This document shows positions 5,403 through 54,633 of a stretch of DNA of 64,000 nt, one piece after another (position 1 is the first letter of the stretch; each line of letters opens with the position of its first letter). Source of the stretch: Octopus vulgaris. Lineage: Eukaryota. The position numbers and the translations under genes are program-made. The DNA lies in contig OX597818.1 of the NCBI GenBank assembly GCA_951406725.2, positions 18,724,001-18,788,000 of the forward strand, written 5' to 3'. The notes below the pieces were generated by a model. That model saw only the letters and a list, made by a program, of their open reading frames with translations, searched no databases and had not been told where the DNA came from.

Positions 5403-5542
5403 TACGGAGATGTACTCGCATAGCAAGTAATTTGATCTGAGATCGTGTGCTGAAACGAAAACAATTGCAGCGTGGGAGGTGTTTATAAGCCATTTAAGAA
5501 ACACACAAAAGCCGTTCGATTCACTCCAACATTTAAGTTTAA

Positions 5543-5592
5543 TTTGTCAAAATATTTTCGTCGCTAAAATCCGCGACCTGTTCACTGACAAA
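5543..5592 (-). ncRNA. minimal type I hammerhead ribozyme variant (G3-C8 core)
   Basis: UUUGUCA-GUGAACA-G-GUCGC(loop 8)GCGAC-GAAA-AUAU-UU-UGACAAA. Confidence 0.75.
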
Positions 5593-6560
5593 GTCCGTGC
5601 TGCATCTAAGAAAGTAACAGTTAGTTCGTCATATATACGTATGTACGTATGTATGTGTGTATGTATGCATACATGTGTGTATGTATGTACGTATTCATGT
5701 CCGCACATACGCCTGTGTATGCATGTATGTATGTATGTATGTATATATGTATGTGTGTGTATAAGCACGCACATACACTCTATAAAACATAAAGTTATAA
5801 ACCTGTAGCGATGGATGGATGTAGAGTGACCACTCATCACAACGCTATCAAATTTCAACTCCCTACGGCCGAGGCTAGAAAGTGAATTTATGACGCTTGC
5901 TCACAAGAACTATACCCTAAAATCTATTATCAGATTTTTATCTCTATATCACAGAACTAATGTTTTACTATTGTTCGTATGTATGTATGTATGTGCGTAT
6001 GTATGTATGTATGTATGTATGTATGTATGTATGTATGTATGTATGTATGTATGTACATACGTACGCATGTGCGTATGTATGTATACGCGCCCGTATGCAT
6101 GTGCCCATGTATGTGTGTGTGTACATGTACGTGCGTATGTACGTGTGTATGCCCATACGTAGGTATGTATGTATGTTTGTATTCATGTGCTACGTATGTA
6201 TGTGAGTGTCTAGGAGAATGGGCAGATGTGTCCGTGAGAGTGTGTACATGTGTATGTGTATGTGAACGTATGTCCGTGTACTGGCATGTGTCCGTCCAAG
6301 TTGTGTACATGACTGTTACTTAGCTGAAGGTTGTATACATATTTACATATATGTTTGTATAGACGCACACACATATATATATATGTGTGTGGGTGTGTGT
6401 TTGTTCCTCTCATCGTCGTCTAACCGTGAATGGGTACAACGCCTAGGTGCGACTGTTCGTATCAAACAACGTCTGCTCATACCGTTGTATATAACTGCAC
6501 ATACGCATTGCAACCTGTATGTAAGGACTACAGGTGAAAGGGAGAGAGAGAGAGGGGTGG

Positions 6561-7052
6561 TTATAGAATAGTCCTTCTGAATGGGATCTGGATGTTATTC
6601 CATTCGGACTTTCGGTTGAGAGTAGGTTTGTATTCTTGTATACAAACAGCTTCTGTGACCTGTCTCAACATTGCATCGGTGGGATGTGTAGATAGGATGT
6701 TCAACTTAAGCTCCCCTAAGGATCCCTTGTGGCAGTCTACAGCATGTTGGTAGAAGATGGAGTTTGGCTTCCTTTCAATGTAGTTGTCCAGGTGTTCTTT
6801 GAACCTATCATTGATGCTTCTAGAGGTCTCACCTATGTATGACTCCGGGTTAGCCGCGCAAGCTCCCTCCTGGCACTTAATCTGGTATACAGTGCCCTTG
6901 GTTTTACAATTTACGTGTGGATTTGTCGAACACACTGCACAATTACTCTGACAGGTGATTCTATTAAATGGATATGATCTGCATAATGCCGATTTGATAG
7001 TCCTACCTGTCTTTTCTACAACTTTAACTTTTAGGCCCGTAGTCCTGCGCAC
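6561..7052 (-). CDS. 5'-truncated Penelope-like ORF: Cys-rich linker plus GIY-YIG endonuclease
   Basis: GTVYQIKC...SYIGETSRSINDRFKEH...RQVTEAVCI...LNRKSEW, preceded by C-x3-C-x2-C-x7-C; the track start codon is created by the palindrome centre. Confidence 0.85.
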   Translation of the reverse strand: MRRTTGLKVKVVEKTGRTIKSALCRSYPFNRITCQSNCAVCSTNPHVNCKTKGTVYQIKCQEGACAANPESYIGETSRSINDRFKEHLDNYIERKPNSIFYQHAVDCHKGSLGELKLNILSTHPTDAMLRQVTEAVCIQEYKPTLNRKSEWNNIQIPFRRTIL

Positions 7053-7528
7053 TACGGGCCTAAAAGTTAAAGTTGTAGAAAGACAGGTAGGACTATCAAA
7101 TCGGCATTATCAGATCATATCCATTTAATAGAATCACCTGTCAGAGTAATTGTGCAGTGTGTTCGACAAATCCACACGTAAATTGTAAAACCAAGGGCAC
7201 TGTATACCAGATTAAGTGCCAGGAGGAGCTTGCGCGGTAACCCGGAGTCATACATAGGTGAGACCTCTAGAAGCATCAATGATAGGTTCAAAGAACACCT
7301 GGACAACTACATTGAAAGGAAGCCAAACTCCATCTTCTACCAACATGCTGTAGACTGCCACAAGGATCCTTAGGGAGCTTAAGTTGAACATCCTATCTAC
7401 ACATCCCACCGATGCAATGTTGAGACAGGTCACAGAAGCTGTTTGTATACAAGAATACAAACCTACTCTCAACCGAAAGTCCAGAATGGAATAACATCCA
7501 GATCCCATTCAGAAGGACTATTCTATAA
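7051..7528 (+). pseudogene. inverted copy of the GIY-YIG ORF with multiple 1-bp indels
   Basis: Reverse complement of 6561-7043 with mostly homopolymer deletions (AAAA>AAA, GGG>GG, GGGG>GGG); may be sequencing error. Confidence 0.75.
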
Positions 7529-8507
7529 CCACCCCTCTCTCTCTCCCTTTCACCTGTAGTCCTTACATACAGGTTGCAATGCGTATGTGCAGTTATATAC
7601 AACGGTATGAGCAGACGTTGTTTGATACAGAACAGTCGCACCTAGGCGTTGTACCCATTCACGGTTAGACGACGATGAGAGGAACAAACACACACCCACA
7701 CACATATATATATATGTGTGTGCGTCTATACAAACATATATGTAAATATGTATACAACCTTCAGCTAAGTAACAGTCATGTACACAACTTGGACGGACAC
7801 ATGCCAGTACACGGACATACGTTCACATACACATACACATGTACACACTCTCACGGACACATCTGCCCATTCTCCTAGACACTCACATACATACGTAGCA
7901 CATGAATACAAACATACATACATACCTACGTATGGGCATACACACGTACATACGCACGTACATGTACACACACACATACATGGGCACATGCATACGGGCG
8001 CGTATACATACATACGCACATGCGTACGTATGTACATACATACATACATACATACATACATACATACATACATACATACATACATACATACATACATACA
8101 TACGCACATACATACATACATACGAACAATAGTAAAACATTAGTTCTGTGATATAGAGATAAAAATCTGATAATAGATTTTAGGGTATAGTTCTTGTGAG
8201 CAAGCGTCATAAATTCACTTTCTAGCCTCGGCCGTAGGGAGTTGAAATTTGATAGCGTTGTGATGAGTGGTCACTCTACATCCATCCATCGCTACAGGTT
8301 TATAACTTTATGTTTTATAGAGTGTATGTGCGTGCTTATACACACACATACATATATACATACATACATACATACATGCATACACAGGCGTATGTGCGGA
8401 CATGAATACGTACATACATACACACATGTATGCATACATACACACATACATACGTACATACATATATATGACGAACTAACTGTTACTTTCTTAGATGCAG
8501 CACGGAC

Positions 8508-8557
8508 TTTGTCAGTGAACAGGTCGCGGATTTTAGCGACGAAAATATTTTGACAAA
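8508..8557 (+). ncRNA. minimal type I hammerhead ribozyme variant (G3-C8 core), second copy
   Basis: tttgtca gtgaaca g gtcgc ggatttta gcgac gaaa atat tt tgacaaa. Confidence 0.75.
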
Positions 8558-53695: not shown

Positions 53696-53856
53696 CTCCT
53701 CCTCCTGCTGCTGCTGATGTTGATGATGATGATGATGATAATAATAATGATAATACTAATGATAATAATAATAATTTTAAAAGGATTAACGTAACTTCAC
53801 AATGATAAACAGTCAAGACGAAGAGCGCGATTCGATTGTAATAGATATTTTATTAG

Positions 53857-53899
53857 TTGAACGATATTTCGACAGTAAGTCTGTCTTTGTCAAGTTCAA
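53857..53899 (-). ncRNA. minimal hammerhead ribozyme variant (U3-A8 core)
   Basis: UUGAAC-UUGACAA-A-GACAG(ACUUA)CUGUC-GAAA-UA-UC-GUUCAA. Confidence 0.7.
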
Positions 53900-53998
53900 A
53901 ATACATCAAATGGGAATCTCTACATGCCCCATCTGTATAAATCATAACATTTCTGTTGTGATTCCTGATGGAATTCACTTGGCTCATGTTGCTTCACA

Positions 53999-54319
53999 AT
54001 GAACAGGGCTTATCCGACAGAATGCACGAAACACAACTTGATTTATGTTGGTTGTACAACAGAACAATTTCACAAAAGGTGTAACTGGCACAATAACAGT
54101 AGTTCGACAGAACTTGCTGAACATTTCGTTTCAAGCGGCTGCAATTTTGAAAAAGACTTGAAAGTGAATATTCTCAGAAAATATTCTGAATCTGCTTCAC
54201 TTTCACTTCTCAGAATGCATGAGGAGAAATATGTTTGCGGGTTATTAACATCACGCCCTGGAGGAATGAATAAAATGACAGGAGAATATCATCAAACTTA
54301 TACAAGACTGTTTGATTAA
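53999..54319 (+). pseudogene. GIY-YIG endonuclease remnant of a Penelope-like element
   Basis: AYPTECTKHNLIYVGCTTEQFHKRCNWH...LAEHF...RMHEEKYV...PGGMN; CPIC just upstream in another frame. Confidence 0.75.
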
Positions 54320-54503
54320 ATATTCTTCTTTTTCTTTTTTCTTTCCTCTTTTTTTTTGTCTTTTTTCTGTCTTTTTCTTTTCACCTCTTATAAAATTGAA
54401 ACTTAAAGACCGATGATATTCTATCAACGTGTGGTCGCTGGTTACACTCGTTCATACTTTAAATTTAAATTTCTATAATTTTGAATTTTTATCACCCCTT
54501 AAT

Positions 54504-54546
54504 TTGAACTTGACAAAGACAGACTTACTGTCGAAATAGCGTTCAA
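54504..54546 (+). ncRNA. minimal hammerhead variant (U3-A8), cleavage-site U mutated to G
   Basis: ttgaac ttgacaa a gacag actta ctgtc gaaa ta gc gttcaa. Confidence 0.6.
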
Positions 54547-54633
54547 CCAATAAAATATCTATTACAATCCAATCGCGCCCTTCGTCGTCACTAATAATAA
54601 TAATAATAATAATAATAATAATAATAACAATTA

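What the first reader, a model, noticed from the sequence alone, without database searches (positions are those of the whole stretch)
5403..54592. Same asymmetric insertion signature in three unrelated ribozyme elements
Seen: in three elements with no evident shared sequence, the inverted upstream copy extends further 3' than the direct 3' end, by about 58 bp (5403-5460), 98 bp (45165-45262) and 35 bp (53776-53810). All three sit in A/T microsatellites on both sides and carry a hammerhead upstream of the 3' end. Known: Drosophila Penelope shows a short 3' tail on one pseudo-LTR. Inference: a common two-step, microsatellite-primed integration with two priming points on the RNA, also used by a non-coding element.
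Basis: partly seen in the sequence, partly recalled or inferred. Interest (0 to 1): 0.7.

Follow-up and report, generated by a model that had tools for sequence, protein, structure and literature searches.

The report
Penelope long-end/short-end footprint, three families
Three unrelated jumping elements in this animal genome, two protein-coding and one non-coding, sit as back-to-back pairs with one long and one short end, the known mark of Penelope-type retrotransposons, and it likely arises because the enzyme starts copying one RNA at two fixed points, one on each strand of the cut DNA.

Summary
The three asymmetries are real (58, 98 and 35 nt). They are the published Penelope-like element (PLE) "tail", which Frangieh 2024 mapped to two reverse-transcription start sites. 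E1 (5403-8639) and E3 (53776-54592) are 3' pieces of unrelated GIY-YIG-coding PLEs. E2 (45165-45950) is a non-coding 558-bp tandem hammerhead repeat (retrozyme type).

Genome copies show two discrete ends per family (E3 has a minor third). Back-to-back insertions nearly always pair one long with one short end: E1 36 of 36, E2 25 of 26, E3 8 of 11.

Both arms share a private haplotype, one insertion has an 11-bp target duplication, and trinucleotide flanks read as one interrupted tract. Best model: priming from both target strands on one RNA, each site used once.

Not found in my seven literature searches: the quantified one-of-each rule, 58/98-nt tails, and the footprint on a retrozyme. This scan reported the same pattern before on other DNA of this and other genomes.

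The parts
5403..7043 (-). E1 left arm: 5'-truncated 3' part of a C-terminal-endonuclease PLE, ending at the long (tail) end
5403..5460 (-). E1 tail, 58 nt; equals codons 12-31 of the element's ORF in the tandem copy L106
5546..5589 (-). E1 type I hammerhead motif, G3-C8 core pair, palindromic stem III (activity untested)
6564..7106 (-). GIY-YIG endonuclease reading frame of E1 (runs through the palindrome centre)
   Evidence: Pfam PF01541 E 6.6e-5
7041..8639 (+). E1 right arm, ending at the short end; reaches 10 nt further 5' than the left arm
8511..8554 (+). E1 hammerhead motif, right arm; predicted cut 89 nt upstream of the short end
45165..45307 (-). E2 left arm, unit positions 22-164, ending at the long end
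45165..45262 (-). E2 tail, about 98 nt (unit positions about 67-164; edges blurred by TA overlap)
45326..45883 (+). E2 full 558-bp non-coding unit (retrozyme type)
45707..45759 (+). E2 type I hammerhead motif, C3-G8 core, palindromic stem III; predicted cut 194 nt upstream of the short end
45884..45950 (+). E2 partial second unit, ending at the short end (unit position about 66)
53776..53903 (-). E3 left arm with long end
53776..53810 (-). E3 tail, 35 nt here (about 36-37 in other copies), predicted hairpin
53859..53897 (-). E3 minimal hammerhead motif, U3-A8 core
   Evidence: the U3-A8 variant is described in PMC4209133
53904..54012 (-). Inverted internal piece of E3 coding sequence at the junction
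54018..54592 (+). E3 right arm: GIY-YIG remnant (to 54313), 3' UTR, hammerhead-like motif 54506-54544, short end
   Evidence: GIY-YIG E 0.0016, below Pfam's cut-off
5363..5402 (.). (TA)n target, left of E1 (continues at 8640-8697)
44936..45164 (.). (TA)n-rich target, left of E2 (continues at 45951-46296)
54593..54628 (.). (AAT)n target right of E3, same sense as the tract left of 53776

Best explanation
These are head-to-head insertions of two protein-coding Penelope-like elements and one non-coding tandem hammerhead repeat, each pairing one long and one short fixed end, likely because a Penelope enzyme complex nicks both strands of an AT-rich target and primes two cDNAs on one RNA, one at each of two internal start sites. 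Shown: two end classes per family, one of each per insertion, no link between tail and arm length, a shared haplotype across arms, and a target duplication. Inferred: each start site is used once and can go to either strand. The two cDNAs would then be joined at their 3' ends, by short homologies or by fold-back followed by pairing with the second cDNA, giving the mirror image. Inferred: the template is not an RNA cut at the hammerhead, because the start sites lie only 52-194 nt downstream of the predicted cut while arms run far past it. Inferred: E2 borrows the protein of an unidentified (TA)n-targeting PLE.
For: (1) Ends. E1 tail-blind sample: 21 of 21 two-armed insertions (20 loci plus the window) have one long and one short outer end, p about 1e-6. 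Another 15 of 15 tail-selected E1 loci have a short opposite end. E2: 25 of 26. The exception, L167, mirrors 300 of 300 nt of flank, so it is a secondary duplication or an assembly error. E3: 8 of 11. (2) Two primings are needed. In L114 and L117 the tail arm is only the 53-60-nt tail, opposite 2.1-kb and 0.33-kb arms. In the window's E2 the tail arm holds 143 nt opposite 627 nt. (3) One template. E2 units differ by 0.52% within an arm, 0.61% between arms and 2.37% between insertions. E1 arms differ by 0.22% within and 0.51% between insertions, and six insertions have variants seen only on their own two arms. (4) Both strands of one target. L107 has an 11-bp duplication. In 7 of 8 E3 pairs one arm runs into ATT repeats and the other into AAT, and long and short ends each occur on both strands. 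(5) Published biochemistry. A PLE protein nicks and extends both strands, starts at two RNA sites that bound the tail, shows no strand difference and is predicted to dimerise (PMC11167929). (6) The E1 ends lie 33 and 91 nt into the ORF, as tails do in Pen2a and PAc. (7) No pile-up of E2 5' breakpoints at the hammerhead cut: 1 of 66 within 10 nt, 2.5 expected.
Against: No biochemistry on these families. Shared variants and mirror junctions can also come from later conversion between palindrome arms. 16 of 34 E1 junctions are symmetric within 20 nt, which fold-back of one cDNA explains equally well. 3 of 11 two-armed E3 insertions have a third end about 54 nt inside the long end, so 'two sites' is not complete for E3. 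Samples are the 40 best-scoring candidates of 1192-2113 per search, biased to young or query-like copies. One-armed copies are common (9 of 30, 14 of 40, 29 of 40), and the model needs loss or failure of the second cDNA for these. No sequence link between E2 and any PLE was found, so its helper is assumed.
Confidence: 0.7

Rival explanations
1. One priming at the long site, fold-back of the cDNA, and endonuclease resolution at the short site make the mirror arm. The tail is then a resolution scar, as proposed in PMC8557442.
For: 16 of 34 E1 junctions are symmetric within 20 nt, with small loops. Arms share private variants. It gives one long and one short end by construction.
Against: It predicts that the tail arm always contains everything in the tail-less arm. 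In 9 of 14 asymmetric E1, 14 of 25 E2 and 4 of 6 E3 insertions the tail-less arm reaches further, by up to 2-3 kb. One-armed short-end copies exist (5 of 9 E1). In vitro start sites fall on both tail edges. Later deletions at the palindrome centre could rescue some cases.
Confidence: 0.15
2. One reading: an ordered two-step reaction always puts the long end on the inverted, upstream, shorter copy.
For: True for E2 and E3 in the window; a weak lean of 27 of 45 pooled.
Against: 18 of 45 are the other way round, p=0.23. The tail is on 38 of 52 one-armed copies. The literature places it at either end.
Confidence: 0.05
3. Two independent RNAs or two successive insertion events, each picking a start site at random, build the two arms.
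For: One-armed copies of both classes occur. Two-RNA priming is established for other target-primed elements (recalled, no call).
Against: It predicts about half same-class pairs; 0 of 21 (E1) and 1 of 26 (E2) were seen. Arms share private haplotypes.
Confidence: 0.08
4. The palindromes are assembly or library fold-back artefacts.
For: L167 (E2) and L082/L083 (E3) mirror their flanks as an artefact would.
Against: Other insertions have unlike flanks (10 E2 controls scored 17-121 against 590 for L167), fixed unequal ends, arm differences, and a target duplication in L107.
Confidence: 0.02

Closest known systems
Poseidon PLE of the green anole, PAc (Frangieh et al. 2024, PMC11167929; parts 1-2 of 4 read, supplements not seen)
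   Same: Two internal start sites bounding the tail inside the ORF start; both target strands used; AT-rich targets; hammerhead upstream of the start sites.
   Different: Tail 30-40 bp there, 58 and 98 nt in E1 and E2. In the parts read, no pairing rule between the two ends of an insertion and no non-coding passenger.
EN+ PLE insertion structure with inverted pLTR and tail (Craig et al. 2021, PMC8557442: passages, section 11, supplement part 54; Arkhipova et al. 2013, PMC3846280: passages)
   Same: [quoted passage not shown]
   Different: There the tail is qualitative and optional, and ascribed to endonuclease resolution. Here it is counted as near-strict one-of-each in three unrelated families.
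Animal non-LTR retrozymes (Cervera and de la Pena 2020, PMC7229834: passages and Discussion; Li et al. 2026, bioRxiv 10.64898/2026.07.22.740005: parts 1-3 of 5)
   Same: Non-coding tandem unit with one type I hammerhead per unit; PLEs proposed as the mobiliser.
   Different: E2 (558 bp) is longer than the 170-400 nt units of the first paper. Those texts argue from co-occurrence and phylogeny and leave the mechanism open; E2 shows the PLE insertion footprint itself. Circular RNA and self-cleavage are untested for E2.
Minimal PLE hammerheads (Cervera and de la Pena 2014, PMC4209133: passages)
   Same: Short palindromic stem III suited to dimeric folding; U3-A8 core variant as in E3; motifs seen close together on opposite strands.
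   Different: E1 has a natural G3-C8 core, which the passages read do not mention; as an engineered double mutant it partly restores cleavage.
L1 twin priming (recalled; one search listed two papers that hold the term, not read)
   Same: Both target strands prime cDNA on one RNA, giving an inversion.
   Different: In L1 the second site is variable and far upstream, so the arms do not overlap. Here both sites are fixed and 35-98 nt apart, so the arms duplicate each other.

Membership tests
EN+ Penelope-like element (E1) | Single ORF with RT and C-terminal GIY-YIG | tested here: met
   GIY-YIG by Pfam. L106 and L109 hold 755-777-aa frames with RT motifs read by eye. Pfam did not score the RT; the best named relative is annotated as an RT-domain protein and has a weak RVT_1 match. 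No intact full ORF was seen.
EN+ Penelope-like element (E1) | Partial tandem with pLTR overlapping the ORF start; inverted copies; tail | tested here: met
   L106 is a partial tandem of a unit of about 4.26 kb; ends lie 33 and 91 nt into the ORF.
EN+ Penelope-like element (E1) | Hammerhead in the pLTR | tested here: met
   Motif in 40 of 40 loci; activity untested.
Nematis clade (E1) | Short CX2-5CxxC linker before a CCHH-type GIY-YIG; place in the RT tree | tested here: inconclusive
   The linker layout matches the Nematis rows of Fig. S2 by eye; no tree was built.
Hydra clade (E1) | CCHH absent, CxCX5C linker, under 3 kb | tested here: not met
EN+ Penelope-like element (E3) | C-terminal GIY-YIG with Zn-finger linker | tested here: met
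   Frames of up to 317 aa end in a GIY-YIG-like domain; Pfam E 0.001, below the curated cut-off. The long linker resembles Neptune rows by eye.
EN+ Penelope-like element (E3) | RT domain upstream in the same ORF | tested here: inconclusive
   Only the last 1.3 kb was used as reference. No sense frame of 330 aa or more belonging to E3 appeared in 39 loci; copies are decayed (82-94% alike).
Animal non-LTR retrozyme (E2) | Tandem units, each with a type I hammerhead | tested here: met
   558-bp units in arrays of up to about 14; motif in 39 of 39 loci.
Animal non-LTR retrozyme (E2) | No protein coding | tested here: met
   Longest stop-free frame 111 codons, on the antisense strand; no tblastn match from the proteins or the E1/E3 frames.
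Animal non-LTR retrozyme (E2) | Self-cleavage and circular monomer RNA | not testable with these tools
   Only contigs of runs guessed to be RNA were available.
Animal non-LTR retrozyme (E2) | Sequence kinship to a PLE pLTR | tested here: inconclusive
   No match to E1 or E3; other PLE families of the genome were not compared.

The most novel reading that the evidence does not exclude
Penelope-type enzymes integrate by an obligatory asymmetric double priming: one complex holds one RNA by two fixed sites, assigns one to each nicked strand, and so writes every two-armed insertion with exactly one long and one short end. The spacing is set by the RNA (35, 58, 98 nt), and a non-coding retrozyme has kept two such sites to be copied in trans, from an uncut multimer rather than a monomer circle.
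Probability: 0.45. Interest if true: 0.65.

Novelty: new variant of a known kind. Interest (0 to 1): 0.42.

Why it matters
How PLEs make their tandem and inverted structures is named as an open problem in PMC8557442, and what mobilises animal retrozymes is left open in PMC7229834 and the 2026 preprint. The one-long-one-short rule in three unrelated families gives a sharp prediction for the existing in vitro system. E2 offers a short, non-coding RNA with two mapped start sites as a test substrate. The signature itself and the two start sites are already published, so this refines a mechanism and does not reveal a new system.

Tried and rejected
Rfam: no hammerhead family among the 150 matches listed (79 lower ones not shown); the list was microRNA look-alikes on microsatellites and palindromes. 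The hammerheads rest on my own descriptor plus a shuffle control.

Pfam gave no hit on the two long E1 frames.

Expression: no holder on record as RNA was listed. Four runs guessed to be RNA cover E2 in 28-30 of 30 bins as contigs, with no joints. This says nothing on level, circles, or splicing of the intron-like stretch 45662-45884. Loose ends at 45489 running into (TA)n in three runs repeat the long end.

Kinship of E2 to E1 or E3: none at DNA or protein level. Shared RNA structure at the start sites: single-sequence folds show hairpins near or between the sites in all three, but no common motif, and no shuffle control was run.

Monomer circle as the E2 template: not established. For it: one haplotype per insertion, and only 1 of 26 junctions symmetric within 20 nt (3 of 26 counting T-run cases) against 16 of 34 in E1 (Fisher p 0.0002 or 0.005). 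Against it: in L145 and L131 a unit-specific variant is shared by the centre-side units of both arms, which a single monomer circle does not give. A third case (L159) was not verified because the anchor missed.

Rows dropped: L020 (second end outside the locus) from the E1 end count; L160 (small internal inversion) counted as one-armed; L167 from the arm-length count; E1 loci L105, L106 and L118 (extra tandem pieces) counted for outer ends only. E3 loci were not tallied because the query held the tail.

No structure or complex prediction was run; it would not change the reading.
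Full report
OBSERVATION. The window lies at G000:C5:18724001-18788000 in a 2.8-Gb genome. The best named relative of the E1 protein is an Octopus vulgaris protein at 57% identity, which suggests a cephalopod host. Self-comparison shows three inverted structures at the stated places. Local alignments give extensions of 58 nt (5403-5460), 98 nt (45165-45262) and 35 nt (53776-53810) beyond the end of the opposite arm. Flanks are (TA)n, (TA)n and (AAT)n. A type I hammerhead descriptor allowing any Watson-Crick 3-8 pair found 5 hits in the window, 4 with a palindromic stem III, all in these elements. 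The core pairs are G3-C8 (E1), C3-G8 (E2) and U3-A8 (E3). 100 block shuffles gave 0.01 such hits per window. The motif is present in 40 of 40 E1, 39 of 39 E2 and 27 of 39 E3 loci. The families share no DNA (best E 0.26) and E1 and E3 proteins barely align (E 0.2).

WHAT THE THREE ELEMENTS ARE. E1 is the 3' part of a young PLE. The window holds its GIY-YIG frame. Locus L106 holds a partial tandem of a unit of about 4.26 kb with RT motifs, and shows that the short and long ends lie 33 and 91 nt inside the ORF start. Its endonuclease linker resembles Nematis by eye and fails the Hydra features; no tree was made. E3 is the 3' part of an older, unrelated PLE (copies 82-94% alike) with a GIY-YIG remnant and a Neptune-like long linker. 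E2 is a 558-bp non-coding unit in tandem arrays, 96-99% alike, with one hammerhead per unit: a retrozyme by structure. First-look candidates were 2113, 1350 and 1192; only the best 40 of each search were scored.

Ends fall into two classes. For E1, a probe without the tail gave 29 loci outside the window. 20 of them and the window are two-armed, and all 21 have one long and one short outer end. The 9 one-armed loci are 4 long and 5 short. In tail-selected loci, 15 of 15 visible opposite ends are short. By a strict rule, 39 of 49 E1 ends run into (TA)n. For E2, 39 loci plus the window give 26 two-armed insertions, 25 mixed. The one long-long case mirrors its flanks as well. The 14 one-armed loci are 10 long and 4 short. 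For E3, a tail-less probe gave 39 loci; with the window, 11 are two-armed. 8 are long-short and 3 have a third end about 54 nt inside the long end. Of the 29 one-armed loci 24 are long, 4 short and 1 other. The polarity fails: among asymmetric insertions the tail is on the arm with the shorter reach in 9 of 14, 14 of 25 and 4 of 6 (27 of 45, p=0.23; tallied by hand; test).

MECHANISM. Shown in print: a purified PLE protein nicks and extends both strands of an AT-rich target, starts reverse transcription at two internal RNA sites that bound the tail, with no strand difference, does not need hammerhead cleavage, and is predicted to be a dimer (PMC11167929). Shown here: (a) one site of each kind per insertion; (b) tail-less arms that reach up to 2-3 kb further than tail arms, and two tail-only arms (L114, L117), which fold-back of the tail-bearing cDNA alone cannot make; (c) arms share private variants: E2 0.61% between arms against 2.37% between insertions, E1 0.22% against 0.51%; (d) one target tract used from both strands: an 11-bp duplication at L107, and complementary ATT/AAT flanks in 7 of 8 E3 pairs; (e) start sites 89, 194 and 52 nt downstream of the predicted ribozyme cut, with no excess of E2 5' breakpoints at the cut (1 of 66, 2.5 expected). 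Inferred: one complex primes two cDNAs on one uncut RNA, one site per strand in either assignment, and the cDNAs are joined by short homologies or by fold-back and pairing. 16 of 34 E1 junctions are symmetric within 20 nt, against 1-3 of 26 in E2. Both cDNAs stopping at a common template end, or fold-back, would explain this; these cannot be told apart here. For E2 the template form is open. One haplotype per insertion fits a circle or a homogeneous multimer, but in L145 and L131 unit-specific variants are mirrored about the centre, which points to a multimer or to later conversion between arms. Overlap between RNA end and target is only a few bases, so the microsatellite is best read as the nicked primer, not as a pairing partner.

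AGAINST. No experiment on these families. Sampling is limited to top-scoring copies. Conversion between palindrome arms can mimic (c). E3 has a third end class. One-armed copies are common. The helper of E2 is unidentified.

COMPARISON WITH WHAT IS KNOWN. [quoted passage not shown] The tail inside the ORF start is in PMC3846280 (passages). Minimal, dimer-type hammerheads and the U3-A8 variant are in PMC4209133 (passages). PLEs as the likely mobilisers of animal retrozymes are proposed in PMC7229834 and supported by phylogeny in the 2026 preprint, which leaves the mechanism open. Seven full-text searches and the texts read gave no count of end pairing, no tails of 58 or 98 nt, and no retrozyme shown with the tail footprint. 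The library lacks most subscription papers, and some supplements were not seen. Earlier notes of this scan report the same rule and retrozyme footprint for other families in this and other genomes. I saw them after forming my reading, and none matched the E2 sequence. They are not counted as support.

VERDICT. A real feature and a known signature with a published two-start-site explanation. The added value is the near-strict one-long-one-short rule across three unrelated families with different tail lengths and targets, and its presence on a non-coding retrozyme. Interest 0.42.

Noticed in passing
window 26073-29927 and 30260-32981: A 1284-codon frame with an RT domain (RVT_1 E 4.8e-27), followed by an 80% identical decayed tandem relative; back-to-back A and T runs at 29962-30017. 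Probably a LINE.
   Followed up: partly
window 59448-59612: Older 74% palindrome with a hammerhead-like motif (59508-59562, stem III not palindromic) near its centre, next to a TATG tract; possibly a decayed fourth head-to-head stub.
   Followed up: partly
window 45662-45884 (E2): Intron-like signals around the hammerhead (a GT donor-like site after 45661; T-run and AG at the unit end). 12 of 66 E2 5' breakpoints fall at this T-run/unit boundary, 3.5 expected (p 2e-4), though my linearisation point inflates this.
   Followed up: partly
L187, L196, L199 (E3): A third 3' end about 54-55 nt inside the long end, 18 nt inside the short end, in 3 of 11 two-armed insertions.
   Followed up: no
window 5546-5589 and 8511-8554: Natural G3-C8 hammerhead core in E1, which a CUGANGA descriptor would miss.
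   Followed up: partly
window 53484-53694, 54623-54884, 20378-20585, 21321-21643, 36347-36513, 57835-58088: An abundant short repeat family (67-77% alike) with trinucleotide tails; E3 sits in an (AAT)n tract between two of its copies.
   Followed up: no
window 48506-48805, 57470-57769, 15252-15438: A 300-bp repeat family (83-90% alike) whose 3' part looks tRNA-like by eye; and a second family at 33060-33183, 37218-37585, 55834-56208.
   Followed up: no
window 50963-51146: 73% palindrome without an obvious hammerhead.
   Followed up: no
L174, L176, L189, L191 (E3): One-armed copies with a short inverted piece at their 5' end, like small fold-backs.
   Followed up: no
L167 (E2), L082/L083 (E3): Palindromes that include hundreds of bases of flank; secondary inverted duplications or assembly errors.
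   Followed up: partly
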